64,000 bases of DNA from the IMG/VR virus record IMGVR_UViG_3300028571_002266, positions 96,001-160,000 of that record; one strand, 5' to 3'. The notes beneath the pieces were generated by a model that had not been told where the DNA came from, ran no database searches, and saw only the letters and a program-made list of their open reading frames with translations. Shown here piece by piece: positions 1-51,534 of the stretch; position 1 is the stretch's first letter; each line of letters starts with the position of its first letter. Source of the stretch: a virus. The translations under genes were made by a program, and so were the position numbers.

Positions 1-2
1 TG

Positions 3-230: not shown

Positions 231-265
231 TTCATATATATCCTTGCACAGAGCGGGAGATATAT

Positions 266-1279: not shown

Positions 1280-1280
1280 A

Positions 1281-5568: not shown

Positions 5569-5604
5569 CCCCTTAGAATTTTATAAGTTCTAAGGGGTAT
5601 TTTT
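5569..5604 (+). terminator. Intrinsic terminator-like hairpin overlapping a sigma70-type -10 (TTGATT 5551, 17 bp, TAGAAT 5574)
   Basis: CCCCTTAGAATT...AGTTCTAAGGGG followed by TATTTTT. Confidence 0.6.
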
Positions 5605-6568: not shown

Positions 6569-6757
6569 ATGGAAAAGAACTTCATGGTTAGGTGTCACAA
6601 GTGCAGATGGGCGAGGTTATCAACAGGTTTATCCTCTGATCTTGCCGATTTGAAGGAAATTATTTCTTGTCCAACTTGTGGCAAGGCTAGACAATTTAAG
6701 TGTCCAAAGTGTGGTCTTGTGGCTAAGTTGACTAGAGTCAAGAGAACTGATGGATGA
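6569..6757 (+). CDS. small Zn-ribbon protein
   Basis: CHKC, CPTC, CPKC. Confidence 0.75.
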   Translation: MEKNFMVRCHKCRWARLSTGLSSDLADLKEIISCPTCGKARQFKCPKCGLVAKLTRVKRTDG

Positions 6758-7926
6758 AATTAATTAGTTTTTGTCGGCGCAATCCCGGCAATGGTAAGTT
6801 GCTATCCAAAGAAGTATTAATTCCTTCTTTGAAATTTACTGTATTCAAATTCAATAAAAGACCTAAGCCAGAGAATGTTAAAAGAATACTGATAATTAGT
6901 TGTTTTTCTGAGTTTGGTTGTGAAACAATTGGTTTGATGTATTGTATTCCCAAGATCATTTCGAGTAATCCCGGTGCTTATGTAATTTGTGTTGGTTGGT
7001 ATGGGAGAGAATATCTTTACAGGCATCTTGTTGATGAGTTTTGGGAAATTGAAGAAAACGTCATGAATTTGCGTGAATATTCAAATGCTTTTTATAATTC
7101 TTCTTTTAATATTCGTCGTCTTGAAAAGTGTCTTGAAAATTATGGTGTAGTTTTCAAGTGTGCCAATATGGGACAATTATGTGTCAATAATACTTGTGAA
7201 ATTTGTAAAAAAGTTTGGGCTTCTGACAATGTTTCCACTGGATGTCCTTCTTGTTATTCTCAAAAAATAAAAAAAGGTTATCTTGCCGATGTTGCTTATC
7301 ATCGTAAGTTTGCTGTACAGATTCCAAGACCATCTATGAAAGTTCAGAATAAAGCTAAAGATTATTTGAAGCCAAATTCTGTTGGTATTTTTGCAAGAGG
7401 CAGGACGATGTATGGTCGTAATCTATCTCCAGAATTTTATATAAAGCTTATAAAATGTTTGGAGGAAAAGGGTTACAATCCTATATGGCTGGGTGAAAAG
7501 CAGAGTGTCATTCCTTGTCCTGTTGATCACATCATTGATTTTAGTCGTCTTCCTGAATCAAGGGATTTGGAACTTACTTTGGCGATTATATCAAATTTGC
7601 AATTTACTGTTCAGTTTTGGACAGCTTCTACGAGGCTGGCTGGAATGATGGGTGTTCCTTGGATATTATTTGAAAGTCCTGATCAAATAGCGGGTAATGG
7701 GCAAGAGGGCAAGAGGATTGTTCTTACGACTGATTACAACAAGAAAAAATTAATTTTGGCTCATTATTTTAATGTTGTTGAAGATCATGAAAAAGCATTG
7801 AAAATCTTGGATCAGGCTATAGACGAAATGAATGAAGACAATTGGGAAGATATGCTGGGTTTGATAGAAGATGCTGGCATAGTTAACGATATGCTTAAAA
7901 AACAACTTGAATGGAGGTCGATGTGA
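6754..7926 (+). CDS. GT-B glycosyltransferase (GT9/heptosyltransferase-like) with inserted Zn ribbon
   Basis: EFGCE, GRNLSPEFY..LI..L, L.LTLAIIS..QF.V...TASTRLAGMMGVPWI; CEIC..CPSC insert. Confidence 0.65.
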   Translation: MKLISFCRRNPGNGKLLSKEVLIPSLKFTVFKFNKRPKPENVKRILIISCFSEFGCETIGLMYCIPKIISSNPGAYVICVGWYGREYLYRHLVDEFWEIEENVMNLREYSNAFYNSSFNIRRLEKCLENYGVVFKCANMGQLCVNNTCEICKKVWASDNVSTGCPSCYSQKIKKGYLADVAYHRKFAVQIPRPSMKVQNKAKDYLKPNSVGIFARGRTMYGRNLSPEFYIKLIKCLEEKGYNPIWLGEKQSVIPCPVDHIIDFSRLPESRDLELTLAIISNLQFTVQFWTASTRLAGMMGVPWILFESPDQIAGNGQEGKRIVLTTDYNKKKLILAHYFNVVEDHEKALKILDQAIDEMNEDNWEDMLGLIEDAGIVNDMLKKQLEWRSM

Positions 7927-9065
7927 GTTCGGTTGCTGATTTTTTACGCAGGGCAGCGGAGCGTAATGGTTTCCATAGAGATCGTTATGAAGAGAAGAGG
8001 ATTCCAACTGACTTCACGAATGTTTGCATTTTGCCTTTTTTTGGTGATTTGAGAAGCATGACGATTTTGTCAAGTTATATTCTGCATCGATATCGTGATG
8101 AGTCAAGAGGTTCAAAATATTTTATAGTTGCTTCATGGCCCGGATTTCAGGGTTTGTTTCCATATGCTGATGAGTATTGGTCTTTGACTGATGATTCGAT
8201 TATGAAGAGGTTTTACGATCATTCTGAGGGAATGCGTAATAGTTCTGATTTGAATGTTTCGTACATGAGGAATATGAATGAGTTTTTCAGGGATGTGATT
8301 GATGCGGTTGAGATTCAGAAGTATTATCGGAATGGATTTACTAATTACTTTTTTGATAAATTTCAGGACACGAAAAGATTTTTACCTTTTATTCCGAGTT
8401 CATCAATTATTGGTAAGGAATTCAATAGAAGTTTGATAACGAAGCCGGGTTATAAGGTATTTTTACATCCATCTATTTATTGTAGGTTTTGGCATAATGG
8501 TATAAGCGACCACATGAAGGTCAAGAAAGAATTTTATATTGATTTGGTTAATTTCTTGTCCAATAAGGATGTTACTTGTGTTTTGTGGCAAAATGCATTT
8601 TCTTATGATCTTGCTGATTCTCTTGAAGAAAAGTGTGTGTTTTTGAGAGAGCAGGACGTAACAAAGGCTTTGGCAGCGATGCGTGCTTGTGGTTGTGTTC
8701 TTGACACGTTCAATGGTTTGTCGAGGTTGTCTTTGCTGGCAAGAACTCCCTTTTTGTCTATTGATGAAAGGTCGAGGTTTTCAGGAACGAAGGAATTCGA
8801 GATTGATCATTTGAGTGGCAATCAAATTCCGTATCAGTATATTTTTTCATTTTCTACTATCATAACTGATGGCGATGCTGGTTTGTGGAAGAGTGATATT
8901 TTTCCAAGTATTTATCGAAAGCTTGAGGAATTTTTACCTAGCCTAAACCGTGATGAATGGCCTTCTACTGCGGAGAGTATTGAAAATTTACCTTATGAAG
9001 ATTTTGTGCAACCGCAGAAAAAAAAGAAACTTGGCACAAGATTTATCAAGGTAGCAAAAGAATAA
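7923..9065 (+). CDS. GT-B glycosyltransferase-like protein, paralogue of the upstream gene
   Basis: Y.DEYW, ALAAMRACGCVLDTFNGLSRLSLLARTPF; GTG start with SD GGAGG, coupled to the upstream stop. Confidence 0.55.
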   Translation: MSSVADFLRRAAERNGFHRDRYEEKRIPTDFTNVCILPFFGDLRSMTILSSYILHRYRDESRGSKYFIVASWPGFQGLFPYADEYWSLTDDSIMKRFYDHSEGMRNSSDLNVSYMRNMNEFFRDVIDAVEIQKYYRNGFTNYFFDKFQDTKRFLPFIPSSSIIGKEFNRSLITKPGYKVFLHPSIYCRFWHNGISDHMKVKKEFYIDLVNFLSNKDVTCVLWQNAFSYDLADSLEEKCVFLREQDVTKALAAMRACGCVLDTFNGLSRLSLLARTPFLSIDERSRFSGTKEFEIDHLSGNQIPYQYIFSFSTIITDGDAGLWKSDIFPSIYRKLEEFLPSLNRDEWPSTAESIENLPYEDFVQPQKKKKLGTRFIKVAKE

Positions 9066-9075
9066 GGAATAAAGT

Positions 9076-9363
9076 ATGGCTTGTAAAGTTGAATTGCGTG
9101 ATCTTCCTATGAATCCAAGTTGGTATGAAAAGGAGATTGCATTCAAAAAAATGTTTACTGCTTTCAAAAAGCAGGTTGCGGAAGCTGGTATTCTGCATGA
9201 TTTTAAGAAGAGAGAGTACTATGAGACTCCCGGTCAAATTCGTCGCCGTAAGAGTCGTGAGGCGGAAAATGTGCGTTTGAAGGAAAAGCTGCGTGAGAAT
9301 TTCCCAGAAAGACGTAAGCCGAAGAAGTCTGATAACAAGAAAACAAAAGCCAAGGGTGAATAA
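9076..9363 (+). CDS. rpsU: 30S ribosomal protein bS21
   Basis: FKKQVAEAGILHDFKKREYYETPGQIRRRK, with N- and C-terminal extensions. Confidence 0.9.
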   Translation: MACKVELRDLPMNPSWYEKEIAFKKMFTAFKKQVAEAGILHDFKKREYYETPGQIRRRKSREAENVRLKEKLRENFPERRKPKKSDNKKTKAKGE

Positions 9364-9626
9364 TGCCATCTAAAAAAGGTACGATCATGAGCCTGAATGT
9401 TGATCCCAGCATTCAGGAAAAGATGAAGGCAGTTGCCAAGAGGCGAAACATTAGTGTTTCCAAGCTTGTTCGTGATTTGGTTGACAATAATCTTCCAGAT
9501 GCTGACGAGGAAGTAGATGTTGTGATCTTTAAGATTCCAACTGCCATGAGGACAACTCCTGATTCTCTTAAGCAATGGCTGCAAAATCGTATTGATGCTG
9601 TAGTAAGGGCTTTGACAACATCATGA
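9363..9626 (+). CDS. Ribbon-helix-helix DNA-binding protein
   Basis: IMSLNVD...EKMKAVAKRRNISVSKLVRDLV. Confidence 0.75.
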   Translation: MPSKKGTIMSLNVDPSIQEKMKAVAKRRNISVSKLVRDLVDNNLPDADEEVDVVIFKIPTAMRTTPDSLKQWLQNRIDAVVRALTTS

Positions 9627-10117
9627 AATTCAAAGAACCTCTGAAAATTGTTCCAGTTGCTGATATCCCTAAGGCAAAAGATGTTCCTCTTGAAAGCCTT
9701 ATGGATATATTCCGTCTTTGCACAAAGATGGAAAAAATTTGCGATGAAAATGATGGAATAGGTTTATCAGCAGTTCAAGTTGGAGTTCCATGGAATCTTT
9801 TCATTGTTAAGCGCAATCGTCATTTTGAATATTATGTCAATTGCGAGTATACAGGCCATGGAGACAAGATAAAGTCAGTTGAGGGCTGCTTGTCTCTTAG
9901 GAATGAGGATGGCACTTTTAGAAGGTTTGAGGTTGAGAGATTTTCTAAGACACGAATAAAAGGCAAGCAACTTGTTGTTTCAGGGATGCCTTCTCTTGTT
10001 TTGAATGATGTTGATCGTGAAGAGATTAATCTTTTCAGTATTGTTTTTCAGCATGAATGCGATCACAGTCGAGATGTACTCGTTTCGCAAATAGGTCGTG
10101 AGGTGGAATTGGCCTAA
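9623..10117 (+). CDS. def: Peptide deformylase
   Basis: GIGLSAVQVG, EGCLS, QHECDH. Confidence 0.93.
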   Translation: MKFKEPLKIVPVADIPKAKDVPLESLMDIFRLCTKMEKICDENDGIGLSAVQVGVPWNLFIVKRNRHFEYYVNCEYTGHGDKIKSVEGCLSLRNEDGTFRRFEVERFSKTRIKGKQLVVSGMPSLVLNDVDREEINLFSIVFQHECDHSRDVLVSQIGREVELA

Positions 10118-10144
10118 GAAATCCGTCTTCCGTTAAAGGACGGA
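10118..10144 (+). repeat. GAAA-hairpin element, copy 1
   Basis: GAAA TCCGTCTT-CCGTTAA-AGGACGGA (8 bp, 1 G.U). Confidence 0.75.
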
Positions 10145-10160
10145 GCTAAGGGAATGAATT

Positions 10161-10439
10161 ATGTTAAGTCTCAAACAATTAGAAGATGTGTGTCTGAATT
10201 CAGATGCGACTTCTCAAAAATGTCGATATATTTGTCAAGATGAAGTTGACAAAAATAAGTTTTACTGCTTAAAACTTTCTGCTAAAGCTAGCAAAATAGA
10301 TAATGAAATTGAAAATTATATCAAAGTAATTAGCTTAAAAGGCAGAGATCCTTCTGATGAAAATTTACCATTAGGGGACAATTGTTCTGGTTATCCTTTT
10401 CTTAGGCATATCGAACAAGGTTACGACAAGAAAAATTAG
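10161..10439 (+). CDS. hypothetical Cys-containing protein
   Basis: 92-aa ORF, SD AAGGG. Confidence 0.7.
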   Translation: MLSLKQLEDVCLNSDATSQKCRYICQDEVDKNKFYCLKLSAKASKIDNEIENYIKVISLKGRDPSDENLPLGDNCSGYPFLRHIEQGYDKKN

Positions 10440-10936
10440 AGACTTTCTAGTCTCTCTCTGATTATCTGGTAGATATCCTTTCCTTTGTTTTCTTCAACAG
10501 CAGAGGAAAGGATATTTGCTTCTAGCTCATTACTGTTAAATCTTGCTATCTCTCTTACCATTAGTTCGTTCGTCTTTTCGCTGCTTATAGCTCTGTTTCG
10601 ATAGTAGAACAATAGCATTGCTATGACAACTAATGCGAAGATGAAGATTAGTGCTCCATCGCCTTGGATTATTTGAACTCCTGTGTTTTCGTTTCGTGAA
10701 ATTGCGCCGTTTATGTTGACTAGGCCGCTTTGTATTTCTTTCAGAAGACTATTTTGGGCTGATAGATCTTGCCTAGTCTTCATGAGTTCGGCCATTACCC
10801 CATTTTGGTTTGTGCGTATATCCTCTATTTTACCATTTTGATTTTGTATTTTGGGGTTGTTTCTTGGGTTGAAGTTTGCACATCCTACCAAGTTTAACAA
10901 GGTTGCGGCTGCAATAATCAACAAAAATTTGTACAT
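10436..10936 (-). CDS. Lipoprotein with coiled coil and an internal TM helix (spanin-like topology)
   Basis: SD GGAGG; MYKFLLIIAAATLLNLVG/C lipobox; TM ALIFIFALVVIAMLLFYY-RNR. Confidence 0.7.
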   Translation of the reverse strand: MYKFLLIIAAATLLNLVGCANFNPRNNPKIQNQNGKIEDIRTNQNGVMAELMKTRQDLSAQNSLLKEIQSGLVNINGAISRNENTGVQIIQGDGALIFIFALVVIAMLLFYYRNRAISSEKTNELMVREIARFNSNELEANILSSAVEENKGKDIYQIIRERLESL

Positions 10937-10955
10937 ACATCCTCCACAATATGTA

Positions 10956-10984
10956 TTTACAAGTGGGGAATTTCTTTGTACACT
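10956..10984 (+). promoter_or_regulatory. sigma70-type promoter
   Basis: TTTACA, 17 bp, TACACT; 7 nt before hairpin copy 2. Confidence 0.6.
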
Positions 10985-10991
10985 ATGCTGA

Positions 10992-11014
10992 GAAATCCGT
11001 TTCATGTTGACGGA
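10992..11014 (+). repeat. GAAA-hairpin element, copy 2
   Basis: GAAA TCCGTT-TCATGTT-GACGGA. Confidence 0.8.
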
Positions 11015-11039
11015 TGATCAACCCGCTGGAGGATTTGGC

Positions 11040-11450
11040 GTGGCTCAAGGCAAGGATGTTTTTTTCTTTGGTGATGAATTTGATGATGAAAATTCATCAA
11101 GTGAAAGCGCACAGATTGCAAATGAATTTAAGCAGAATGCTAATTCATTAGTTGTACATCATTTGTCAAATTACTTCAAGGACAAGATGTTGCACACAGG
11201 AGGAAATGTTCCTGATCAATTACTAAATAGTCATAAAAGAATATCTATGGTTTTGAACTACACTGTTTCTAATGGTGTAGATCATGCTCATGAAAGACTA
11301 GAATTTTCTGAGGGGAGAAACAATGATGATGAGAATTCAGAGCTTATCGTCACTGTTCTTCATGGAATAGCCAAAAGTGGTGTTCCGAAGGAATTTGCTG
11401 GTGGTATGCTTTGTCTGCACTTGGAATTAATAGAAGGGATAGATTTTTGA
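11040..11450 (+). CDS. hypothetical acidic protein
   Basis: GTG start 7 nt after GGAGG. Confidence 0.65.
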   Translation: MAQGKDVFFFGDEFDDENSSSESAQIANEFKQNANSLVVHHLSNYFKDKMLHTGGNVPDQLLNSHKRISMVLNYTVSNGVDHAHERLEFSEGRNNDDENSELIVTVLHGIAKSGVPKEFAGGMLCLHLELIEGIDF

Positions 11451-11761
11451 ATCTTGATTTATTATTGTTGTCAAGGCAATTTGAGACTGTCGAATTGCCG
11501 AAGGAAAAGAAATACCTCCTGAGATATTTTGAAAATCCAGTTCAGGAGGCTTTTCTTAAATATTTCTTTGTATTTGGTAATTATGTTAATTTTTGTGACC
11601 ACACTGGTCATTTCGTGCAGAAAAAATGGTTAAAACATCTGCATGAAAAATTAAAAACAATTGAAAAAGCCCACAAAGATGCCAGATCTAACTTTGACAT
11701 GGCTGGACTTGTTGAAATTGAAAAAGGTGAATTCAAATTCAGTCGTCATCTTCCTAAATAG
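11447..11761 (+). CDS. hypothetical protein
   Basis: TTG start coupled to the upstream stop. Confidence 0.65.
   Translation: MNLDLLLLSRQFETVELPKEKKYLLRYFENPVQEAFLKYFFVFGNYVNFCDHTGHFVQKKWLKHLHEKLKTIEKAHKDARSNFDMAGLVEIEKGEFKFSRHLPK
11755..11760 (+). promoter_or_regulatory. Putative late promoter TAAATA (also at 12927, 17887 minus, 22601, 23750, 24561, 25819 and 50985, each 4-6 nt before an ATG)
   Basis: Recurrent hexamer at fixed distance from start codons; core of the T4 late promoter TATAAATA. Confidence 0.65.
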
Positions 11762-11764
11762 TGT

Positions 11765-12007
11765 ATGGCACTAATATCATTCGGCGATTGGCGTAAAAAA
11801 TTTGATGAAGCAAGCCCTACTACAAGATTAAGGGCTGGAATTGAGGCGGGTAATTATCCCATGTCTGCTGGGGTGGCTATGTCTCGATCCACACCAAGCC
11901 CATCTTTTGTAAAGAAGGCAATTGAAGAATTAGGATCACCTGAACATCCTAAAAGGAAAAATAAGACTAAAAAGAAACGTAGGAATTCCAAGAAAAGGGA
12001 AAAATGA
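11765..12007 (+). CDS. Small basic protein, possible internal head protein
   Basis: MALISFGDW..FDEA N-terminus, K/R-rich tail. Confidence 0.7.
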   Translation: MALISFGDWRKKFDEASPTTRLRAGIEAGNYPMSAGVAMSRSTPSPSFVKKAIEELGSPEHPKRKNKTKKKRRNSKKREK

Positions 12008-12402
12008 TTTTTTTCAATGAATGGATGCAGGAAAGATTCGATGAGGCTAAAAAGTCTCGTCGCACCCCTGTTCCTCATTCTGATGTTGAAAAATGGATGC
12101 GTTCTTTAGAGCTTCTCAAGAAAGATCTTGAGGAATTGCAGAAAGCCAAGAAGAATGCTGCCCAAAGATTTGCTAGAGAAGCAAAAATCAAGAAGGAAAA
12201 AGAAAAGAAGGCTAAAGATGCCAAGAAGTTAAAAAAGAAAAAAGATTCAGAAATAGATAAAAAATCTGAAAAAGAACCTGAAGTTGAGAAGAAAGATAAA
12301 AAACCTGAAGTCAAAAAATATGATTCCAAGAAAAATGTTGTATCTGATAAGTTCAGACAGATTAAGAGTCAAAGGCGTAAAAATAATAAGCCTAGAGACT
12401 AA
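12004..12402 (+). CDS. Lys-rich protein, possible internal head protein
   Basis: MIFFNEWMQERFDEA N-terminus, highly charged. Confidence 0.7.
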   Translation: MIFFNEWMQERFDEAKKSRRTPVPHSDVEKWMRSLELLKKDLEELQKAKKNAAQRFAREAKIKKEKEKKAKDAKKLKKKKDSEIDKKSEKEPEVEKKDKKPEVKKYDSKKNVVSDKFRQIKSQRRKNNKPRD

Positions 12403-12452
12403 TTATTTTTAAGTTGGCAGTCTCCACTATAATTAAATAGCGGAGATAGATC

Positions 12453-12899
12453 ATGAGTACTGAAAATATTTGCAACGATGATTCCTTAGATCAATCTAAG
12501 GCAAAAAATGCCAGAGATGTTCTGAAAGGCATTATTGTTTCAGAATCAAATCTTGAAACATATTTAATTGCAGTAGCTGTTCATAAAGATTCATCCAAGA
12601 ATTTTATCAATAGAATAAGTTGTAAGAAGGGCATACCTCTTGATGGATATGTTTATGATGCTCAATCAGACAGTTATTTCATAGAATGCACTGATTTTTT
12701 GCATGTAGGGGTAATTCCTGTTTCTTTTGTTGCTACTGCTAAAGATTCTTATTTTTGGAAAATGAATATACCTTTGCCTGAAGCTGTCATTAAAAAGTAT
12801 TTGACTGAGATCCAAAAGAAGGATTTGAAAAACTTTAAGAGTCATTTTAGCTCTCAAGATTACATGATTAATTATGTTCAAATGGTTAATCCAAACTGA
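12453..12899 (+). CDS. hypothetical protein
   Basis: SD GGAG, 148 aa. Confidence 0.7.
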   Translation: MSTENICNDDSLDQSKAKNARDVLKGIIVSESNLETYLIAVAVHKDSSKNFINRISCKKGIPLDGYVYDAQSDSYFIECTDFLHVGVIPVSFVATAKDSYFWKMNIPLPEAVIKKYLTEIQKKDLKNFKSHFSSQDYMINYVQMVNPN

Positions 12900-12937
12900 A
12901 TTCATGTTTTTCTGGTTCTTCTGCCATAAATAATTTC

Positions 12938-13765
12938 ATGGCATGCTCATCTACTGGAATAGGCTGTACTACTACAACTGCAAAAAGTTGTCCTGACGAA
13001 TATGGATGCGTTAGCGGCGTATGTGCCGATTTCATCATTCGTAGGCATGATACTAAACCATCTTTCAAGGTTAAGATCGAAGATTGCGATGGACCTCTTG
13101 ATCTTACAGATCTTGTTCTTGAGGCCACAATGTGGGCCAAGGGGAAGCTTAAGGTTTCTCTTGATCAGAATGATTCAGTTATTGGTTTGGCTGATAATAT
13201 TGGCTTTAATCAAGTAATGCAGGGCGATGTGATTATCATGGATCAGGCTAGATTGCCTGAGAAGATGCTTGTTGTTGGATTTGATGAAGTAAATCGCCTC
13301 ATTCGTGTCCAGAGAGGTTATCATGGAACCCCAGTGCAAAACTGGAGACGTGGCACAGGATTGAAAATCATTAAGTTTTCTAACGCAACTGCTACAACTG
13401 AAATGTTGTATCAGGACATCATTAACATTGATGGAACAACGACTAAGGATGTTTTAGTCGATAGTTTTTTAATTTATGATTGGCAGAGTGAAGACACATG
13501 TCTTCCGGGTTGTTATTATTTGGAATTTAAGCTTTTGAAAATGGTGGTTTCTTTTGCTCTTGCTTATGATTCTTCTGTCCCAAGCAATCAAATTCCTAGT
13601 AATCTTTTGCCTGATGGAGTTATTCCGAGTTTTACTGATCCAAGTTTTATACCTTCCGATTTTGGTTGTTCTATGAATCCACTTGTTGAATGGATAAGAA
13701 GGTTTCCTATTGATAAAGAAGGCTTTATAATTAAAATAACGAATACTTTTACGGCTGATGATTGA
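12938..13765 (+). CDS. Putative virion structural protein (BppU-like Ig domain)
   Basis: FIIRRHDTKPSFKVKIED.DGPLDLT...YDWQ.EDT..PG.YYLEF; TAAATA upstream. Confidence 0.6.
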   Translation: MACSSTGIGCTTTTAKSCPDEYGCVSGVCADFIIRRHDTKPSFKVKIEDCDGPLDLTDLVLEATMWAKGKLKVSLDQNDSVIGLADNIGFNQVMQGDVIIMDQARLPEKMLVVGFDEVNRLIRVQRGYHGTPVQNWRRGTGLKIIKFSNATATTEMLYQDIINIDGTTTKDVLVDSFLIYDWQSEDTCLPGCYYLEFKLLKMVVSFALAYDSSVPSNQIPSNLLPDGVIPSFTDPSFIPSDFGCSMNPLVEWIRRFPIDKEGFIIKITNTFTADD

Positions 13766-13790
13766 CATCATAGAATTTAAGTCGTATTTT
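13762..13790 (+). promoter_or_regulatory. sigma70-type promoter of infC
   Basis: TTGACA, 17 bp, TATTTT. Confidence 0.5.
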
Positions 13791-13831
13791 TGTATAGGGT
13801 CTTTTTTATGTTGGAGCATGGATTTCACAAG

Positions 13832-14377
13832 ATGCAGCAAAACAAATTTCCTAGAGAGCGAAGCGAAGATCAAAACAGAGTTAACTGGCAGATAAGAGTG
13901 CCACAAGTTAGGGTTGTTCGTGAAGAAGAGCAACTTGGCATTATGGCTACTGATGAGGCAAGAAAACTTGCCATGGACAATGGTCTTGATCTAGTAGAGA
14001 TCGCTCCTACTGCGAAGCCTCCTGTTTGTAGGATTATGGATTATGGTCGTTATAAATACGAACTGAAAATCAAGAAAAAAGAAGCTGCAAAGAAGCAGCG
14101 TGAGTCACAAGTCCAGATAAAGGAAATTAGACTTCGTCCTGCTATTCAAGATCATGATATTGAAACAAAAATTAATCAGGCGAAGAATTTTCTTGAAGAA
14201 GGTTGTAAGGTTCAATTTTACCTTCAATTCAAGGGTTACCGTGAATTGAATCATAAAGAGCAGGGTTTCGCTGTTATGAAAAAAATTGTTGAAACAATGG
14301 AGCAATTTGGAGTCGTAGAGAAAAGACCTGCGATGGAAGGCAATCGAATTACATGCTTTTTTACTCCCAAAGTATAG
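13832..14377 (+). CDS. infC: Translation initiation factor IF3
   Basis: RVNWQIR..QVRVV, GLDLVEIAPTAKPPVCRIMDYGRYKYE, KEIRLRP.I..HD; exact start uncertain. Confidence 0.95.
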   Translation: MQQNKFPRERSEDQNRVNWQIRVPQVRVVREEEQLGIMATDEARKLAMDNGLDLVEIAPTAKPPVCRIMDYGRYKYELKIKKKEAAKKQRESQVQIKEIRLRPAIQDHDIETKINQAKNFLEEGCKVQFYLQFKGYRELNHKEQGFAVMKKIVETMEQFGVVEKRPAMEGNRITCFFTPKV

Positions 14378-15882: not shown

Positions 15883-16254
15883 ATGTCGAAGAGTAAGATT
15901 CTCACTCCTATGGGTTCAGTTTATGATTCTACTATTATTGGTGGTGGATCAAAAGTTCCTAAAATCAAATCTGTCAAGCCAACTGGTTCGCAGGTTCTAA
16001 TTGAATTCTTGACATCTCAGGAAATGCTTGGGACAAGTCTAGCTGTCAATGAAAAAACAGATTTGAAAGTTCCTTTGCAAGGCTATGTTCGCTCTGTAGG
16101 CCCTAACTTCAAATCATCAGATTATGGGTTTAATATAGGCGACAGAGTCACTGTTTCAGGTCCCGGTATTCATGTTCCTAATTGGGACAATATTCACCGT
16201 GATCGCTTCCTTATGGAACCTTCTTCAATTAAAGGCGTGATCATAGAAGAATGA
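15883..16254 (+). CDS. groES: GroES-like co-chaperonin
   Basis: VKPTGSQVLIE...QGYVRSVGP...IGDRV...LMEPSSIKGVI. Confidence 0.75.
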   Translation: MSKSKILTPMGSVYDSTIIGGGSKVPKIKSVKPTGSQVLIEFLTSQEMLGTSLAVNEKTDLKVPLQGYVRSVGPNFKSSDYGFNIGDRVTVSGPGIHVPNWDNIHRDRFLMEPSSIKGVIIEE

Positions 16255-17306
16255 AAGACTACTATGTCGTTCTAGGTATTCCTAGAAATGCATCTAAAGA
16301 AGATATTGTTAGGGCATACCGCAAGGGTGCCCAAACACATCATCCTGACCGTAATCCCGGCGACTCAGAAGCCGAAAAGAGATTTCGTGAAATTCAGGAA
16401 GCGTATGAGATATTAAACGATCCAGAAAAACGTGCTGAATATGACAGTGGAGGCCACTCCATGCATTTCAGGATGCGTGGATTTGAGGGTAATCCTTTCA
16501 GTGGTTCATTTGGTGATATTTTCCAGAATAGTTCTTATCGTGGAAGAAATCTAACAGTAAGATTAGAAATTGATTTATCAGAAGCTTATAACGGTTGTAA
16601 CAAAGAAATAATTATAAAAGTTAAAAATACATGCACGACATGTAAGGGTCAAGGCCAGATAAGTAATGAATCATGTGCTAATTGTAATGGTCAAGGATTC
16701 ACTAAAGTAAATAATGCTCCTTTTGAATTCAGAACAAATTGTCCAATTTGTAATGGTTTGGGAAAGATAAATCCAATCACATGCGTTGATTGCAGTGGTT
16801 CTGGAATGCTTTCTGGATATAAGGAAAAAAAGATACAGGTTCAAATTCCATGTGGAGTTGACAGTGGAATTAATCTGAGAATGCCCGGTCAAGGAGAGGA
16901 ATCAATCAGGGGAGGAAATCCCGGTGATTTAATTATTCATGTCTTGGTTAAAGAACATGAATATTTTCAAAGAGAAGGAATAGATCTTCTTGTTGATGTC
17001 CCTCTTTCCTTTTCCCAGTTGACATTTGGCTGTGAAGTCGAAATACCTACAATTTGCGACGAGACGCTTACTTGTAAAATTCCATTGGGAACACAAAGCC
17101 ACGCCAAGTTTAAGCTTGGAGGCAAAGGAATGAAACTTCCAAATGGTGTTTATGGTGATATGATTGTTACTGTAAAAGTTGAGATACCAAAAGGAATAAC
17201 AGGTGAATATAAAGAAGCAATTTTGAAACTACAGGATTTTGAAAAAAATAACTTTGGATCTAGAAGACAAAGATGGCAAAAAATTGTAGGCAAAAAAGAT
17301 AAATAA
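16251..17306 (+). CDS. dnaJ: Chaperone DnaJ
   Basis: DYY.VLG, HPD, four CxxCxGxG, GDL..HV, F.R.G.DL. Confidence 0.95.
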   Translation: MKDYYVVLGIPRNASKEDIVRAYRKGAQTHHPDRNPGDSEAEKRFREIQEAYEILNDPEKRAEYDSGGHSMHFRMRGFEGNPFSGSFGDIFQNSSYRGRNLTVRLEIDLSEAYNGCNKEIIIKVKNTCTTCKGQGQISNESCANCNGQGFTKVNNAPFEFRTNCPICNGLGKINPITCVDCSGSGMLSGYKEKKIQVQIPCGVDSGINLRMPGQGEESIRGGNPGDLIIHVLVKEHEYFQREGIDLLVDVPLSFSQLTFGCEVEIPTICDETLTCKIPLGTQSHAKFKLGGKGMKLPNGVYGDMIVTVKVEIPKGITGEYKEAILKLQDFEKNNFGSRRQRWQKIVGKKDK

Positions 17307-17326: not shown

Positions 17327-17530
17327 ATGAATGCTTTGCACAATAAGTTTTTTTGGGTAGTCGCCGCTCTTACCGCAGCACTTTTAATTTTTGGAATTGG
17401 CGGTAAGTTATTTGTGGACAAGGTTGCTGATGTTGTTATTGAAAAGCTGAAAAAAGACTATAGCCCTTCTCCTTACGGTCCCGGTATTGATCCTGATAAG
17501 ATTGATGTTACTAAAATTAAGAAAAATTAA
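17327..17530 (+). CDS. small membrane protein
   Basis: SD GGAG, one TM helix, YSPSPYGPG.DPDK. Confidence 0.7.
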   Translation: MNALHNKFFWVVAALTAALLIFGIGGKLFVDKVADVVIEKLKKDYSPSPYGPGIDPDKIDVTKIKKN

Positions 17531-17877
17531 ATAACGTGACAGCTTTTTATTTGAGAAGGAGCGAGGCTGTTGTCATGCGACAGCCTTAACATTTTTATTA
17601 CCATTGTTTTTCCAGTTTCTGGTTGGCCCTTTATCCTTCTAAATTCATCATGTGTAAAATAAAGTTTTGTCCCATCACCTAGTTGAATATAAATAGGGTT
17701 CTTTTTTCGTATGATGATGTGAATTTTTGCTCTTTTTTCTATTACTGGTAAGTCTAAATCAATATTTGGCAAAATATAAGATTTTGCCCAATCAAAATTT
17801 TCTGAAACAGAAAAAGCCCCAATTCTATCTAGGCAATCTCTTATATTGATAAATTCTTGAAAATTACTGCTCATCAT
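17527..17877 (-). CDS. hypothetical protein
   Basis: TAAATA 4 nt before the ATG; NFQEF N-terminus. Confidence 0.7.
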   Translation of the reverse strand: MMSSNFQEFINIRDCLDRIGAFSVSENFDWAKSYILPNIDLDLPVIEKRAKIHIIIRKKNPIYIQLGDGTKLYFTHDEFRRIKGQPETGKTMVIKMLRLSHDNSLAPSQIKSCHVI

Positions 17878-17894
17878 TACTTATTTAGTTTACT

Positions 17895-22519: not shown

Positions 22520-22610
22520 ATTTTCTCCTTAATAAAATAAAATAAAACTATTGTCTCTATATTTATTGTTTTGCATTAAAAAATAAATTACTGCATTGCT
22601 TAAATAAGGC

Positions 22611-23345
22611 ATGGCAAAACCAAGAAAAAAACCCGTCAAGAATGAAAAGACCAACACAACACCAGCACAGCATGCTAGTGGTAAAAAGCCATTTCATGTT
22701 GAGTTTATGAATGCTGCTCAAAAAATGGCTTGGGGTGCATTTGATCAGCATGATGTTTTGTTTTTGCTAGGAGCTCCCGGTACGGGGAAGTCACACCTCG
22801 CTTGCGCCTTTGCAATTAGTGAGATTTTAGCTAAAAGAAAAGAAAAAATTATTATAACAAGACCAACCATTGAAGCTGGTGGCCGAGGACTTGGGTTTTT
22901 ACCGGGCTCGGCGGAAGAAAAATTAAACCCTTATATGCTTCCTCTTTTTGATTGTATGGATAGGTGTTTGGGAACATTTTCTCCACAGAGGGACATAATC
23001 AATAAGAGTGTAGAGCTTTCTCCTCTTCAGTTTATGCGTGGTAGAAGTTTTCATGATTCAGTTTGTATTCTTGATGAAGCTCAGAATTGCAATTATGCTG
23101 AAATTAAATTGTTTCTTACAAGATTTGGACAGAACAGTAAAGTAATCATTACTGGTGATCCGATGCAAAGCGATTTGCCTTGGAAGGACAGGGCTTTGAT
23201 GAATGTTGTTGATAGGTTGTCAAGCTTAAAGGGAGTTGGAATAATAAACTTCAAGGCTAATTCTATTGTTCGACATCCATTGATTGCATCGATTCTTGAG
23301 AAGTTGGAAGAGGATAAGGAGGAGAGTGGCACTAGTAGTTCCTGA
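22611..23345 (+). CDS. phoH: PhoH-like ATPase
   Basis: GAPGTGKS, TRP, LGFLPG, MRGRSF, DEAQN, TGD..QSD, VRHPL. Confidence 0.95.
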   Translation: MAKPRKKPVKNEKTNTTPAQHASGKKPFHVEFMNAAQKMAWGAFDQHDVLFLLGAPGTGKSHLACAFAISEILAKRKEKIIITRPTIEAGGRGLGFLPGSAEEKLNPYMLPLFDCMDRCLGTFSPQRDIINKSVELSPLQFMRGRSFHDSVCILDEAQNCNYAEIKLFLTRFGQNSKVIITGDPMQSDLPWKDRALMNVVDRLSSLKGVGIINFKANSIVRHPLIASILEKLEEDKEESGTSSS

Positions 23346-23736: not shown

Positions 23737-23759
23737 TATTCTTAATTAGTAAATAGGTA

Positions 23760-24542
23760 ATGAGTAATTTAGCATTATCTTTTTCTTATAATGGGACTCA
23801 TCATAAATCAGATGGATCTATAAATCCTATTGAACATTTGAAAATGTTAATTGCGGCAATTGATTGTGCGAATCCGAAAGGAGAACACGATGTTATTGTT
23901 TCTGCAATTTGTTTTGATATTTGGAATATGGATCAAAGAGAAAGAAATATTGCTTTAGAAGTTTATAAGAGGGCAAGAATAGTTCTCTCTAACAGTATTC
24001 AAAAAAATCATCAAGATGGAGCGGCTACTTCAATAAGGATGGCAACTGAATTTGCTGCTGCAACAGGGAAAGATTATTTAATTCATCTTGCCGAAGATAT
24101 AGCAGTTGCTCCTGATTTTGTTGAATATTTTCTTAAACATTTGGTCGATTGTGATTATGTTGGTACTTATTGGAACATGTATCCGGGAAAGTCGTTCAAT
24201 ACACAAGTATTTGGTTGTAGAGTTTCTTCTTTTGCTGATTTGTGGAAAAATAATTTTATGATGCCTTTTTCTATTCCTAGAGAATCAGATATAGAGAGAG
24301 AGTTATATAATAATATTACTTCTAATAAATTAATCTATAAAGTTGGAGATCCAAACAGTGATTATAGATTCTCTTATCCTGATAAAAGAGGATGTCCTCA
24401 TTTGAATAGCGCACCAGTTCTTTTTCAGCATACACATAATTCAAATAATTTTCGCAAGATAGTAGAAGGTTATGGCGTGAAATGGTTTGACGAAACAAAA
24501 GAAATAAAAAAAACAAACAAAAAAAATATTTCTATGCTTTGA
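23760..24542 (+). CDS. hypothetical protein, possible GT-A glycosyltransferase
   Basis: NHQDGA, DYLIHLAED. Confidence 0.5.
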   Translation: MSNLALSFSYNGTHHKSDGSINPIEHLKMLIAAIDCANPKGEHDVIVSAICFDIWNMDQRERNIALEVYKRARIVLSNSIQKNHQDGAATSIRMATEFAAATGKDYLIHLAEDIAVAPDFVEYFLKHLVDCDYVGTYWNMYPGKSFNTQVFGCRVSSFADLWKNNFMMPFSIPRESDIERELYNNITSNKLIYKVGDPNSDYRFSYPDKRGCPHLNSAPVLFQHTHNSNNFRKIVEGYGVKWFDETKEIKKTNKKNISML

Positions 24543-24570
24543 TTTAATTCATTTGAGCATTAAATATGTT

Positions 24571-25794
24571 ATGAATTTTAGATTATGGCTTGAAAGCGAA
24601 GAAAAACAAGATGTCATCGATATGGAAATACCGATGCCTGATGACATTGTTTTTTTGAATGAATTATTCAAAAAGCATGGTAAAAAGTTGTATGCTGTTG
24701 GTGGAGTTATCCGTGACTTCCTGATTAGTCACTTCCATATGAATGGGAAGGGTGGAGGTCCAAAGGATGTTGATTTAACAACTGATGCTAGGCCAGAAGA
24801 CATAACTAAGATTTTATCATCAGAAGAAGCGCAAAGACATGGGATTAGAGTTCTTCCTAAGGGAGAAGCATTTGGTGTTATTTCAGCTATTATGGATGGA
24901 AAAGAATATGAGATAGCAACATTTAGAGAAGAATATTATGATCCTATTCATGGTGATGGTCGAAGACCAGATAGAGTGAGCTATTCTACGGCAGATAAGG
25001 ATGCACAGAGAAGAGACTTGACTATGAATGCTCTTTTCTACGACATAGACAAAAAAAGAATTATAGATTACAACACCATTGATGGTCGTGGGCAAGGAAT
25101 TAATGATATTAAAAATCTTGTTGCTAGGCCGGTTGGGAATCCAGAAGAAAGATTTAGAGAAGATAAACTTAGAGTTCTTCGCCTTGTTCGCTTTTTCAGC
25201 AGGTTTAATCCCGGCTTAATCAAGGATAATGTTGACAAGGACACTTTGAATGCAATTAATAAATTCAAATTTTTGGAAGGTGTTTCAGGAGAAAGGATTG
25301 TGGCCGAATTCACGAGTGGTTTTAAGGCAGCGATAAATAAAAATAACTTCTTCAGAAATTATCAAGACTTAGATCTTTTCCCTGCTGTTTTGCCTAATTT
25401 GATTATTGATGTTCAAAACTATGAAGAAAGCAATAGTTTTCCTGCTTCGTTAGCTTTTATTCTAAGAAACAATACGAATTCATCAGTAGTAAGAAAACAA
25501 TTGTCTGCATTAAAATATCCAAATGATATTTCTGATAAAGTGGAATTTTTCTTAAGATTAACAGAATTTGATGGAAGCGAAATTATTACATTTTTGAGGC
25601 GTAGAGATGCTTTGCATGATGTTAAGAAAGATTTACTGGAATTTGCAAAGTTAGAAAAAAATAATTATTTAGTTCATTTTGCTAATTATAAGCAACAAAC
25701 TAACAGCAAAGATTTTATGCATCTTAAAGGCCCAGATATAACAAAGGCTATGAATCAGCGAGAAAAAGAAATTTTCTTGGCCAGTGCTTATTAA
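24571..25794 (+). CDS. cca: Class II tRNA nucleotidyltransferase (CCA-adding type)
   Basis: AVGGVIRD, DVD, GEAFG, EIATFR, RRDLTMNAL, EDKLRVLR, SGERI. Confidence 0.9.
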   Translation: MNFRLWLESEEKQDVIDMEIPMPDDIVFLNELFKKHGKKLYAVGGVIRDFLISHFHMNGKGGGPKDVDLTTDARPEDITKILSSEEAQRHGIRVLPKGEAFGVISAIMDGKEYEIATFREEYYDPIHGDGRRPDRVSYSTADKDAQRRDLTMNALFYDIDKKRIIDYNTIDGRGQGINDIKNLVARPVGNPEERFREDKLRVLRLVRFFSRFNPGLIKDNVDKDTLNAINKFKFLEGVSGERIVAEFTSGFKAAINKNNFFRNYQDLDLFPAVLPNLIIDVQNYEESNSFPASLAFILRNNTNSSVVRKQLSALKYPNDISDKVEFFLRLTEFDGSEIITFLRRRDALHDVKKDLLEFAKLEKNNYLVHFANYKQQTNSKDFMHLKGPDITKAMNQREKEIFLASAY

Positions 25795-25830
25795 TTGTTG
25801 GATTTTCTGTTTGGCCAATAAATAGTTTAT

Positions 25831-27234
25831 ATGACAATTTACAATGATACAATGTCTGATGGAGTTCTGATTGATGGAACGGCAGGTGTTGTACAACAAT
25901 TTTCGGTTGACTTGCAGGTTTATTACGCTGTAAATGAAGAAATTGAATCTGAGATTTCTTTTTATTGGTCTGTAGGCGAGTTGCCTTTGTATTGGTGGGT
26001 TATAGAAGGATATGTTCATCCTCCTGATGACACAAAGTCTTTAGATGTATCTGTTCCAGAAAAGCAAAATTTTATACAAACAATTCTTGCAAGAACTCCC
26101 AAAGAGGTTGGTGAATATTTTGCTCGTGAGTCTCGAAACTGGGAAATAGTTTACCTTAAGAGGTATAGCCAGCCTGCTGATATTTACCTCAATGATCCTA
26201 GTCTTCCGAATGACTTACAAGTTGTTGATTATAAATTTCCTCAATTTTCTGTAAGCACTAGATCTTTGATAAAGATGGGCATGACTGTTTCAGTTGTGCA
26301 GATTTATCAAAGATATCAAGGAAGTGGAGGTGCTACATTTTACGGAAGTGCAGATGCAGCAATTACAAGTGGAGCAGTAACTCCGACAACATCTAATTTT
26401 GTTTATGATAGTTCTGGTGGTCATGTTTTAACTGGTGGATCAGGTGGAGCGGTTAGTTCATTTGCTACTAGTTTCTTGACATATGGTGGAATAAAAACCT
26501 TCTTGTTAAGTGATGTTATTTTTGGATTAGGATCTGCTCCTGCTCTTATCGCTCCTACCAACACAGTTGCCACAGCTTGTGGCTCATGTATAAGTTTCCC
26601 ATTAGAGTTATTCATAGAAAATAACTTTAGTAATCCCGGTGTTTTAGGTAATTTCTTGCAGCGTAATGCTTATACTTTCCCGTCAATATTGCCACTTATT
26701 TACAGTGGTCGTAGTAATTCATGGTTGGCTTTTAAGCATTTTGAAGGTTCGTCTGGTGATAATGCAAATATTGAAAATTGGCGTTTTCAGTTTGAGTGGG
26801 CTTGTACAAATAGTCCTTTCGGTCAAGAAAACGCAACAAGCACTCCTGCTTTCAAATTTTCGATTATAGTTACAAGAAAGAATCTTGGAACAAATATTGC
26901 CATTGATACAAGAATTGTAATTATTTTTTCTTCTGACGATGTTTGTGAAACAGTGAGGAATTTCAAAGAAGATTTTATTTTCAATTTGAACACGAAAACA
27001 AACTATATTAATAATGGGAATGGGATTGTGCCAATTAGCGTTCTATTGAATGATAGAATTGGTATTTTCAAATCTTCATATTGGACTGATAATCCTTATT
27101 TGAACATAAGGATTTCTAGTACAAATATTTTCAATAAGGGTGAAAACAAGGACATTAGTTCGATTATCCCTAAACCTCCAACTTTATATCAGTTGGGGAC
27201 AAGTTTTGCGAGATCTTCGACTGCTGTGATTTAG
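25831..27234 (+). CDS. Putative virion structural protein
   Basis: S/T/G-rich, beta-type composition, TAAATA upstream. Confidence 0.6.
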   Translation: MTIYNDTMSDGVLIDGTAGVVQQFSVDLQVYYAVNEEIESEISFYWSVGELPLYWWVIEGYVHPPDDTKSLDVSVPEKQNFIQTILARTPKEVGEYFARESRNWEIVYLKRYSQPADIYLNDPSLPNDLQVVDYKFPQFSVSTRSLIKMGMTVSVVQIYQRYQGSGGATFYGSADAAITSGAVTPTTSNFVYDSSGGHVLTGGSGGAVSSFATSFLTYGGIKTFLLSDVIFGLGSAPALIAPTNTVATACGSCISFPLELFIENNFSNPGVLGNFLQRNAYTFPSILPLIYSGRSNSWLAFKHFEGSSGDNANIENWRFQFEWACTNSPFGQENATSTPAFKFSIIVTRKNLGTNIAIDTRIVIIFSSDDVCETVRNFKEDFIFNLNTKTNYINNGNGIVPISVLLNDRIGIFKSSYWTDNPYLNIRISSTNIFNKGENKDISSIIPKPPTLYQLGTSFARSSTAVI

Positions 27235-28727: not shown

Positions 28728-29270
28728 ATGGCACGAAAAAAACTGATAAAAACAAAAGAAGAAATTGAAATTCTTACGCTTTCTCATATTGATTTGGCTG
28801 ATAAAATAGCAAGGATGAATCAAAGCAAATATCCTTATTTTAGTTATGACGAGTTGCAATCAGCTGCATATATGGGTCTAGTTAAAGCTGCTAATGAATA
28901 TAATAAAAATAAAAATACTAAATTTTCTACTTTTGCGTTTTCTAAAATTAATTGGTCTATAGTGCAATATGCAATGTTAGAATCAAAGCGTCTTCCCACA
29001 GTTCAGATTGATCCAGATTCGGAAGAACTTTCAATATATTCTTGTGATTATGATGAAAAAGAATTTTATGATGTTCTGTTAAAGTTTATGGACAAGAGAG
29101 AGAAAGAGATTTTTCTGGATTACTATGTTAATGGCAAGAGAATGCACCAAATCGCTGATGAATTGCAATTGGATGAATCTAGAATCAGCCAGATAATTAA
29201 AAAAATAATTGAAAAAATTCGTATGACATGGAAATATTATGAATTTGAATTATACGAAAGAGCGGCTTAA
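28728..29270 (+). CDS. RNA polymerase sigma factor (regions 2 and 4, FliA/SigB-like)
   Basis: DELQSAAYMGLVKAA..Y....KFSTFA..KI; REKEIF..YY..G..M.QIA.EL.L.ESRISQI. Confidence 0.88.
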   Translation: MARKKLIKTKEEIEILTLSHIDLADKIARMNQSKYPYFSYDELQSAAYMGLVKAANEYNKNKNTKFSTFAFSKINWSIVQYAMLESKRLPTVQIDPDSEELSIYSCDYDEKEFYDVLLKFMDKREKEIFLDYYVNGKRMHQIADELQLDESRISQIIKKIIEKIRMTWKYYEFELYERAA

Positions 29271-39546: not shown

Positions 39547-39556
39547 TGAATGTGTT

Positions 39557-39630
39557 GCCCCCGTAACTCAGGTGAATAGAGTAGCGTTTTTCTAAAGCGC
39601 AAGTCGTTGGTTTGAATCCAACCGGGGGTA
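39557..39630 (+). tRNA. tRNA-Arg(UCU), CCA not encoded
   Basis: Acceptor GCCCCCG/CGGGGGT, D stem ACTC/GAGT, anticodon arm GCGTT-TTTCTAA-AGCGC, T arm GTTGG-TTTGAAT-CCAAC. Confidence 0.92.
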
Positions 39631-39669
39631 TTATTTTAGATCATATTACCAACCTATTCTGGTGACACG

Positions 39670-42085: not shown

Positions 42086-42131
42086 ATTTGTTTCCTTGGT
42101 AATTATTTGATTTACATTTATATATAACTTC

Positions 42132-42548
42132 ATGGAAAGACTATGTTCTTTTAATGATTTTTTTTTGCTTAAAGAAGGTAATAGCCGCACGGCATTGAAG
42201 TCTTTGCTTTACCCACTTTCTTATGGTGGGCTGGGTAATTATCCTCCTGCTCACTATCTTCCTCAAGCTGCTGATGCCATTCTATATGTATCGCAGGATG
42301 AGAGGTTATGGTGTAATGGAGATGGAGCACCTTGGGACATCACACATCTACCCGGACATAAGCAATATGGCGATAAAATAAATAATGGCGAAGGCGATCC
42401 ATGGGATATTAATATGGTTCCCGGTAAATCTAAAGAACCATTAGATCATGATGTTCCCGGTAAAGAAGTGCCATATAAGGGATTTTTAAGGCTTGTGACT
42501 AAGATCAAATGTATAAGTCCTGAATATTCAAATTTGCCACCAATTTGA
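42132..42548 (+). CDS. hypothetical protein with internal NG.G.PWDI...PG repeats
   Basis: SFNDFFLLKE N-terminus; TATATA 5 nt before the ATG. Confidence 0.7.
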   Translation: MERLCSFNDFFLLKEGNSRTALKSLLYPLSYGGLGNYPPAHYLPQAADAILYVSQDERLWCNGDGAPWDITHLPGHKQYGDKINNGEGDPWDINMVPGKSKEPLDHDVPGKEVPYKGFLRLVTKIKCISPEYSNLPPI

Positions 42549-50978: not shown

Positions 50979-50995
50979 CGTGCATAAATACATTA

Positions 50996-51298
50996 ATGAT
51001 TCATTTATGCCCTTTTTGCGGTCACGAACTACAAGAGCAACTTTCAGATGGGTTGATTTCTTGTTCTATCTGTAGTCAAGTTTTTGATTCAAGTGATATC
51101 AACCAGTTGCTTTCGGCTGGATGGCTTGTCAGAAAAAACCATTTCAATCATGAGCAATTGAAATGGCATACAAAGCTTGATGAAGACATGATTATTCTTG
51201 TTTTGGCATATGTTGCTGACAATGAATATTCACATCAAGAATTCCTGCAAGTTCTTAAAAAGTTGGGTGTTGCCAACAAATCTTATATAAAATACTGA
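50996..51298 (+). CDS. Zn-ribbon protein
   Basis: CPFC..CSIC; TAAATA 5 nt before ATG 50996. Confidence 0.7.
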   Translation: MIHLCPFCGHELQEQLSDGLISCSICSQVFDSSDINQLLSAGWLVRKNHFNHEQLKWHTKLDEDMIILVLAYVADNEYSHQEFLQVLKKLGVANKSYIKY

Positions 51299-51303
51299 AT
51301 TTT

Positions 51304-51534
51304 CTATTTAGTATCATCAGTTATTGCTGAGATCTGGCCTTTGGGGGCACGGGGGTCAATTTCCATGGCGTTTGCTGCGAGTTCCTTACGCAGCACTGTC
51401 ACACTCTTATTGGCTTCAATCCCGATCCTGACCTTGTTGCGGTTATCGATCCTCACAACCGTCAGGACTATGTCCTGCATACCGGGGACCTGTAGAATGA
51501 TCTGTTCGTCCTTCTTGCGACTAAGTACCAGCAT
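51304..51534 (-). CDS. csrA: Carbon storage regulator CsrA
   Basis: MLVLSRK..EQI...I..TVV.I...KVRIGIEA...V.VLR.EL; SD AAGGA. Confidence 0.92.
   Translation of the reverse strand: MLVLSRKKDEQIILQVPGMQDIVLTVVRIDNRNKVRIGIEANKSVTVLRKELAANAMEIDPRAPKGQISAITDDTK

What the first reader, a model, noticed from the sequence alone, without database searches (positions are those of the whole stretch)
9076..14377. Phage translation-initiation kit (bS21, PDF, IF3) in a genome rich in leaderless mRNAs
Seen: rpsU, def and infC lie within 5.3 kb, with cca, a tRNA and csrA elsewhere, and many genes lack room for an SD behind their promoters. Established: IF3 level discriminates against leaderless initiation, and bS21 affects anti-SD availability and leadered initiation. 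Phage bS21 and IF3 are individually known from huge phages. Inference: these proteins retune ribosomes between SD-led and leaderless messages, giving an early-to-late translational switch.
Basis: partly seen in the sequence, partly recalled or inferred. Interest (0 to 1): 0.7.

Follow-up and report, generated by a model that had tools for sequence, protein, structure and literature searches.

The report
Giant-phage IF3 with altered proofreading loop
A family of giant bacterial viruses carries its own translation-start factor IF3, and every copy is altered at the short loop that normally makes IF3 reject leaderless messenger RNAs; this may let the virus translate its leaderless and ordinary messages side by side rather than switch between them.

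Summary
rpsU, def and infC are real, intact and conserved across a clade of roughly 0.4-0.6 Mb T4-like phages. They are not one operon. The genome is not rich in leaderless messages: a TAnATA box 4-7 nt before ATG marks 5-11% of genes in all ten clade genomes or fragments tested, while 25-41% have a strict SD. In a complete relative, capsid, portal, protease and terminase genes keep leaders, and some early promoters are also leaderless, so a simple early-to-late switch is not supported. This scan noted the leaderless layout before in other phages, and SAR11 phage HTVC008M has it without IF3 (checked here). New here: the phage IF3 has an extra Tyr in the RFRGR loop that touches the start codon. 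The canonical loop is in 166/168 bacterial IF3s and 0/28 clade IF3s, broken in at least six ways while most other conserved sites persist. Published E. coli changes in this loop remove IF3's inhibition of leaderless translation. Best reading (0.5): a relaxed IF3 that boosts initiation without blocking leaderless mRNAs, with bS21 serving SD-led ones. No RNA or biochemical data; effectively one phylogenetic contrast.

The parts
9063..9068 (+). SD (TAAGGA), 7 nt before the rpsU ATG
   Evidence: sequence; an SD-like run precedes rpsU in all 14 relatives read
9076..9363 (+). rpsU, bS21, 95 aa; about 10-residue insert before helix 1 and a long C-terminal helix ending in a conserved Phe-Pro
   Evidence: PF01165; 67 clusters; alignment A1; PDB sequence hits to bS21; pN 0.07-0.14, pS saturated
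9363..9626 (+). ribbon-helix-helix-like protein, coupled to rpsU and def
   Evidence: DUF6364 E 1.5e-6, weak ParG/RHH_3; same position in relatives
9623..10117 (+). def, peptide deformylase, 164 aa, catalytic motifs intact
   Evidence: PF01327, phrog_2890, PDB hits; dN/dS about 0.1
11755..11767 (+). late-type box TAAATA, 4 nt, ATG of an 80 aa gene (11765-12007) with a capsid-targeting-like N-terminus
   Evidence: conserved in L003, L005, L006
12927..12940 (+). late-type box TAAATA, 5 nt, ATG of a conserved 275 aa gene (12938-13765) directly upstream of infC
   Evidence: box kept in LR756511, L231, L233
13762..13790 (+). sigma70-type promoter (TTGACA, 17 nt, TATTTT) of infC in this sub-lineage
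   Evidence: conserved in L003, L005, L006; not found in most deeper relatives
13832..14377 (+). infC, two-domain IF3, 181 aa from ATG 13832 (alternative ATG 13808)
   Evidence: AlphaFold model matches 30S-bound IF3 5lmn, TM 0.81/0.87; dN/dS about 0.05-0.12
14228..14245 (+). altered start-codon loop FKGYRE (residues 133-138); inserted Tyr codon at 14237-14239; E. coli counterpart F130-R131-G132-R133-E134
17527..17887 (-). gene with box 4 nt before ATG 17877
22601..23345 (+). phoH, box 4 nt before ATG 22611
23750..24542 (+). 260 aa gene, box 4 nt before ATG 23760
24561..25794 (+). cca, box 4 nt before ATG 24571, capsid-targeting-like N-terminus
25819..27234 (+). 467 aa gene, box 6 nt before ATG 25831
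28728..29270 (+). small sigma factor (regions 2 and 4); one candidate reader of phage promoters
   Evidence: a second sigma lies just beyond the window
39556..39631 (+). tRNA-Arg(TCT)
42121..42548 (+). 138 aa gene, TATATA box 5 nt before ATG 42132
50985..51298 (+). 100 aa gene, box 5 nt before ATG 50996
51304..51534 (-). csrA
   Evidence: PF02599

Best explanation
The phage keeps two initiation routes open at once instead of switching. Most phage mRNAs are SD-led. A minority of promoters, mostly T4-type late ones, start at or next to the AUG, so those mRNAs must load 70S ribosomes directly. The phage supplies extra IF3 to split and recycle ribosomes, from an ATG-started gene that should escape IF3 autoregulation. 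Ordinary IF3 in excess blocks leaderless initiation, and the phage copy has its start-codon-inspecting loop disrupted, so it should add IF3 activity without that penalty. bS21 and PDF are general capacity genes: bS21 supports the anti-SD platform for SD-led messages and PDF processes the extra N-termini. Shown: gene identity, conservation, the loop change and the two 5' architectures in sequence. Inferred: transcript starts, timing, ribosome incorporation and relaxed discrimination by this particular loop.
For: The canonical F[RK]GR[EQ] loop is in 166/168 bacterial IF3s, 0/28 clade IF3s and 5/12 other phage IF3s; the Gly-Arg pair is intact in 167/168, 2/28 and 11/12. 117 of 120 closest homologues carry the one-residue insertion and none of 53 Planctomycetota IF3s does. 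Deeper clade members break the loop differently (FKSRE, FKGAE, FRQRE, FKARE, YKRRE, FNKKSQ) on separate branches, while 27 of the other 31 near-invariant columns are kept in at least 80% or changed little. The Arg-Gly of this loop contacts codon position +2 and base +4 (PMC5037330). Swapping it for the mitochondrial motif stops E. coli IF3 inhibiting leaderless translation up to 4 uM, and R131P acts alike in vivo (PMC11775629). All ten clade genomes or fragments sampled have a leaderless-type excess. The box behaves like a promoter: it shares an A/T element at -20 to -16 in leaderless (72/96) and leadered (52/80) cases against 108/314 controls, and A is enriched 5 nt after it in leadered cases (44/80 vs 104/314, p 4e-4), matching T4's -13 to -6 spacing (PMC1524935).
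Against: HTVC008M has the same layout (19/181, expected 4.1) with no IF3 gene, so the layout does not need a phage IF3. LR756504 has a canonical IF3 and a twofold excess (32 vs 15.9); 121Q has a degenerate loop and no excess. The clade is one phylogenetic contrast. The loop changes could reflect loss of constraint on proofreading, which a dispensable second copy may allow. The published swap lowered activity about twofold at 1 uM, and no insertion variant has been assayed. IF3's effect on leaderless mRNA depends on concentration and message (PMC9031893). No RNA data were obtained. The host is unknown, so its own leaderless use is unknown.
Confidence: 0.5

Rival explanations
1. The three genes are generic translation boosters and the loop change has no tie to leaderless messages. 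It is drift in a redundant copy, or it serves re-initiation at coupled genes, non-AUG starts or unusual initiator tRNAs.
For: Leaderless layout without IF3 in HTVC008M; Phosso has IF3 and bS21 with no leaderless class; many window genes are translationally coupled (24 of 95); earlier follow-ups in this scan found no link in other phages. Many different broken states are what relaxed selection also gives.
Against: The change is concentrated in this loop while the gene stays under purifying selection. Leaderless-type starts are almost all ATG (79 of 90 in LR756511, 15 of 15 in G000), so non-AUG use is not prominent. Two-GC initiator stems also occur in a Planctomycetota genome.
Confidence: 0.3
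2. One reading: phage IF3 and bS21 retune ribosomes over time, giving an early SD-led to late leaderless switch.
For: Leaderless starts are commoner among late-type boxes (at least half in LR756511) than early-type promoters (about 22%; none in G000). 28 of 43 genes with capsid-targeting-like N-termini are leaderless in LR756511, p 3e-23. infC has an early-type promoter in this sub-lineage.
Against: Capsid, portal, protease and terminase genes are leadered, so late translation needs SD-led initiation most. Early leaderless promoters exist. infC promoter context is not conserved. No conserved promoter was found for the rpsU unit, so its timing is unknown.
Confidence: 0.12
3. The box before ATG is a translational enhancer inside a leadered mRNA, not a promoter.
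For: No transcript ends were measured; A/T-rich enhancers exist in other bacteria (own knowledge).
Against: The same box and upstream element precede SD-led genes at longer distance; spacing peaks sharply at 4-5 nt; divergent gene pairs only 17-19 nt apart share a central box.
Confidence: 0.05
4. The altered IF3 is a dominant competitor that lowers host initiation fidelity or shuts down host translation.
For: Early-type promoter and ATG start would give high, unregulated levels.
Against: Host and most phage mRNAs use the same SD route (PMC10783764), so selective shut-off lacks a handle.
Confidence: 0.03

Closest known systems
Huge-phage translation genes IF1, IF3, S21, PDF (Al-Shayeb 2020, PMC7162821); LR756511 is their SR-VP 595 kb genome
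   Same: Same gene set; the block from dnaE through rpsU-RHH-def to infC is syntenic in LR756511 at 42-48% identity.
   Different: That paper does not mention leaderless messages, and no paper found describes the loop change.
Mammalian mitochondrial IF3 (KKGK motif) and E. coli infC R131P; mycoplasma R131 variants (PMC11775629)
   Same: The same loop is altered, in a system that translates leaderless mRNAs.
   Different: Here it is a one-residue insertion or varied substitutions in a bacterial-type IF3 carried by a phage, acting beside the host's canonical IF3; untested.
bS21 phages of Bacteroidetes (Chen 2022, PMC9723584)
   Same: Phage-encoded bS21 proposed to enter host ribosomes.
   Different: There bS21 lies among capsid genes on the reverse strand and hosts lack SD use. 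Here it is SD-led, in a dnaE-linked unit with def, in an SD-using genome.
T4 late promoters (gp55; TATAAATA at -13 to -6; PMC1524935, PMC2988020)
   Same: Lone -10-type box with matching spacing; gp23-type capsid gene in the relative.
   Different: T4 has no box-ATG fusions (0/248) and no IF3. The clade box is the shorter TAnATA with an upstream A/T element.
Pelagibacter phage HTVC008M
   Same: Box 5 nt before ATG in about 10% of genes.
   Different: No IF3 gene.

Membership tests
Bacterial IF3 (InfC) | IF3_N and IF3_C domains joined by a helical linker | tested here: met
Bacterial IF3 (InfC) | conserved N-domain tRNA and 30S contacts (E. coli R25, Q33, R66, Y70, Y75, R99) | tested here: met
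   alignments
Bacterial IF3 (InfC) | canonical start-codon loop F[RK]GR[EQ] | tested here: not met
   FKGYRE; 0/28 clade vs 166/168 bacteria
Bacterial IF3 (InfC) | non-AUG autoregulatory start codon | tested here: not met
   clade genes have in-frame ATG starts, L516 and L538 excepted; Planctomycetota genes mostly TTG or ATC
Bacterial IF3 (InfC) | 30S binding, anti-association and proofreading activity | not testable with these tools
   needs biochemistry
bS21 | PF01165 core, helix-loop-helix | tested here: met
bS21 | fold match to solved bS21 | tested here: inconclusive
   Foldseek found nothing for the low-pTM model
bS21 | incorporation into host 30S | not testable with these tools
   none
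Peptide deformylase | motifs GxGxAAxQ, EGCLS, HExDH | tested here: met
   GIGLSAVQ, EGCLS, HECDH in the translation
Chen 2022 bS21 phages | bS21 on the reverse strand within the terminase-capsid-portal block | tested here: not met
   about 190 kb from the capsid gene in LR756511
T4-type late promoter | lone -10 box ending 5 nt before the start site | tested here: inconclusive
   spacing and A enrichment fit; no TSS data
T4-type late promoter | read by a gp55-like sigma with gp33 and clamp | not tested
   sigma genes present; none assigned
Temporal translational switch | late mRNAs leaderless, early mRNAs leadered | tested here: not met

The most novel reading that the evidence does not exclude
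A whole clade of giant phages has repeatedly disabled the start-codon proofreading loop of its IF3, converging on the mitochondrial solution, so that the viral factor reprograms host ribosomes to accept leaderless viral mRNAs. The clade would be a natural mutational series for how IF3 gates leaderless initiation.
Probability: 0.35. Interest if true: 0.8.

Novelty: new variant of a known kind. Interest (0 to 1): 0.58.

Why it matters
Phage IF3 and bS21 genes have been catalogued since 2019-2020 without a mechanism. The loop change gives a residue-level prediction that can be tested in a standard reconstituted E. coli system without the host. It also bears on the open question of why IF3 both helps and blocks leaderless initiation: at least six natural loop variants are available. 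If the test fails, the locus is an ordinary huge-phage translation cluster.

Tried and rejected
Alternative genetic codes: coding density is not improved by TAG or TGA read-through. One operon for all three genes: rejected. Promoter scan against shuffles: no excess (49 vs 48.9); only conservation supports the infC promoter. Loss of E. coli R129 and the Asn at the beta-hairpin Arg as phage-specific marks: rejected, both occur in Planctomycetota. Co-adaptation to an odd initiator tRNA: LR756511 has an initiator-like tRNA with two of three G-C pairs, but the stem is widespread. Host: ClpX is closest to Planctomycetota (59-61% vs 52-56%) and one IF3 tree put the phages beside three Planctomycetota (100/86), but a wider quick tree did not and sampling favoured that phylum; the 'provirus' G182 gave no host flank. 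Unresolved. bS21 fold search gave no match. IF3 presence could not be checked in L227, L228 and L234 beyond 10 kb. Function of the 275 aa gene upstream of infC: no family. Gene starts come from my own signal-blind caller, which misplaces some starts, so percentages are approximate.
Full report
Setting. The window is bases 96001-160000 of a 168 kb viral contig, estimated 39% complete, read by table 11. Its gene order from dnaE through rpsU, an RHH gene, def and infC is shared with lineages at 65-90% identity, with about 25 further viral contigs up to 572 kb and with the complete 595 kb huge phage LR756511, which has a T4 gp23-type capsid. It is a fragment of a giant T4-like phage. The host is unresolved; Planctomycetota is a weak candidate.

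The genes. rpsU-RHH-def is a tight coupled unit with an SD before rpsU in all 14 relatives read. infC is separate: 3.7 kb further on, behind its own sigma70-type promoter in this sub-lineage but often behind an inserted TPP-enzyme gene, downstream of a late-type box, in others. Its timing is therefore not fixed by sequence.

The 5' architecture. With starts chosen without looking at signals, TAnATA lies 4-7 nt before 12 of 182 ATGs here and 77 of 951 in LR756511 (expected 3.2 and 12.8; internal ATGs 2/630 and 1/1887), and 41% of genes have a strict SD. Six more clade genomes give 5-11%, P 5e-3 to 1e-8. The box looks like a promoter: an A/T element 16-20 nt upstream is shared by leaderless and leadered cases, A is enriched 5 nt after the box in leadered cases, and divergent genes 17-19 nt apart share one box. 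T4's box sits at -13 to -6 (PMC1524935), which puts +1 on or beside the A of ATG. The class is enriched for proteins whose N-termini resemble the T4 capsid-targeting sequence (28/43, p 3e-23; the resemblance is from my own knowledge). T4, S-PM2, Phosso and 121Q lack the class; HTVC008M has it without IF3. Earlier notes in this scan report the layout in many phages.

Against a switch. In LR756511 the capsid gene has its box 33 nt upstream, terminase has box plus SD, and portal and protease are SD-led; a head-tail adaptor is leaderless. About a fifth of early-type promoters there are leaderless too. Late expression needs both routes. In E. coli, excess IF3 inhibits leaderless translation, though low levels help (PMC9031893), and loss of bS21 eases it (PMC10491246), so ordinary copies of these genes would not favour leaderless late messages.

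The IF3 loop. Aligned to solved IF3s, the phage protein has one extra residue, Tyr136, between the Gly and Arg of the RFRGR motif. In the 30S complex the Arg and Gly just before it contact codon base +2 and base +4 (PMC5037330). The insertion is in 117 of the 120 closest homologues and in none of 53 Planctomycetota IF3s. Across the wider syntenic clade the canonical motif occurs 0 times in 28, against 166 in 168 bacteria and 5 in 12 other phages; deeper members break it by other means, while most near-invariant columns persist. The fold is still IF3. Replacing this motif in E. coli IF3 with the mitochondrial one removes inhibition of leaderless translation at high IF3, and R131P favours leaderless and non-AUG starts in vivo (PMC11775629). 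Clade infC genes start with ATG, whereas the Planctomycetota genes checked mostly use TTG or ATC, so the phage gene probably escapes feedback. No paper or earlier scan note found mentions the loop.

Mechanism. I infer that the phage adds IF3 for ribosome splitting and SD-led initiation, and that a relaxed loop keeps this extra IF3 from blocking its leaderless messages (0.5). This is a compatibility argument, not a requirement: HTVC008M shows the layout works with host IF3 alone. The main rival is drift or another purpose in a redundant copy (0.3). LR756504 (canonical loop, twofold excess) and 121Q (degenerate loop, none) do not fit neatly, and the clade is a single contrast. bS21 differs from bacterial copies by an N-terminal insert and a conserved C-terminal Phe-Pro, but nothing links it, or PDF, to leaderless messages.

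Verdict. Observation partly confirmed; interpretation partly supported. Phage IF3, bS21 and PDF are known, and the leaderless layout was noted before. The clade-wide disruption of the IF3 start-codon loop appears undescribed and is directly testable. New variant of a known kind; interest 0.58.

Noticed in passing
window 24561-25794: The CCA-adding enzyme starts with a capsid-targeting-like sequence behind a leaderless late box, so it may be packaged into the virion and injected.
   Followed up: partly
window 10116-10150 and 10990-11022: Two GAAA-plus-hairpin elements (about -9.9 kcal/mol each) after def and before the 11004 ORF; the exact pattern was found only in this lineage and once in G001.
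   Followed up: partly
window 5569-5597: A 13-pair hairpin (-17.6 kcal/mol) covers the G-rich SD-like run before ATG 5605 and holds a -10-like sequence, recalling T4 hairpins that hide an RBS until a nearer promoter fires.
   Followed up: partly
window 6754-9065: Two conserved 380-390 aa genes directly upstream of rpsU in all relatives, with no Pfam or PHROG family; by eye they resemble GT-B glycosyltransferases.
   Followed up: no
window 1-3800: dnaE is split by inteins and a free-standing ORF here, but is continuous in some near-identical relatives (L230 vs L229).
   Followed up: no
L231 17896-19440, L235 17691-19313, LR756511 326562-328208: A TPP-dependent enzyme gene is inserted just upstream of infC in several relatives and absent here.
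   Followed up: no
LR756511 c277952-278024 and c179588-179661: An initiator-like tRNA-Met with two of three anticodon-stem G-C pairs, and a tRNA with a CUA anticodon (possible amber suppressor).
   Followed up: partly
G000 76974-83485 (outside the window): Three adjacent large ORFs that by eye look like a PrkA/YeaG-YeaH-SpoVR operon; not checked by family search.
   Followed up: no
L315 (phage 121Q) and L314 (LR756501): Unrelated phage IF3s also deviate at the loop (TSGRG, FSGRE) without a leaderless-promoter excess.
   Followed up: partly
window 15883-17306, 52415-53683: GroES-like, DnaJ and ClpX genes belong to the same conserved core region.
   Followed up: partly
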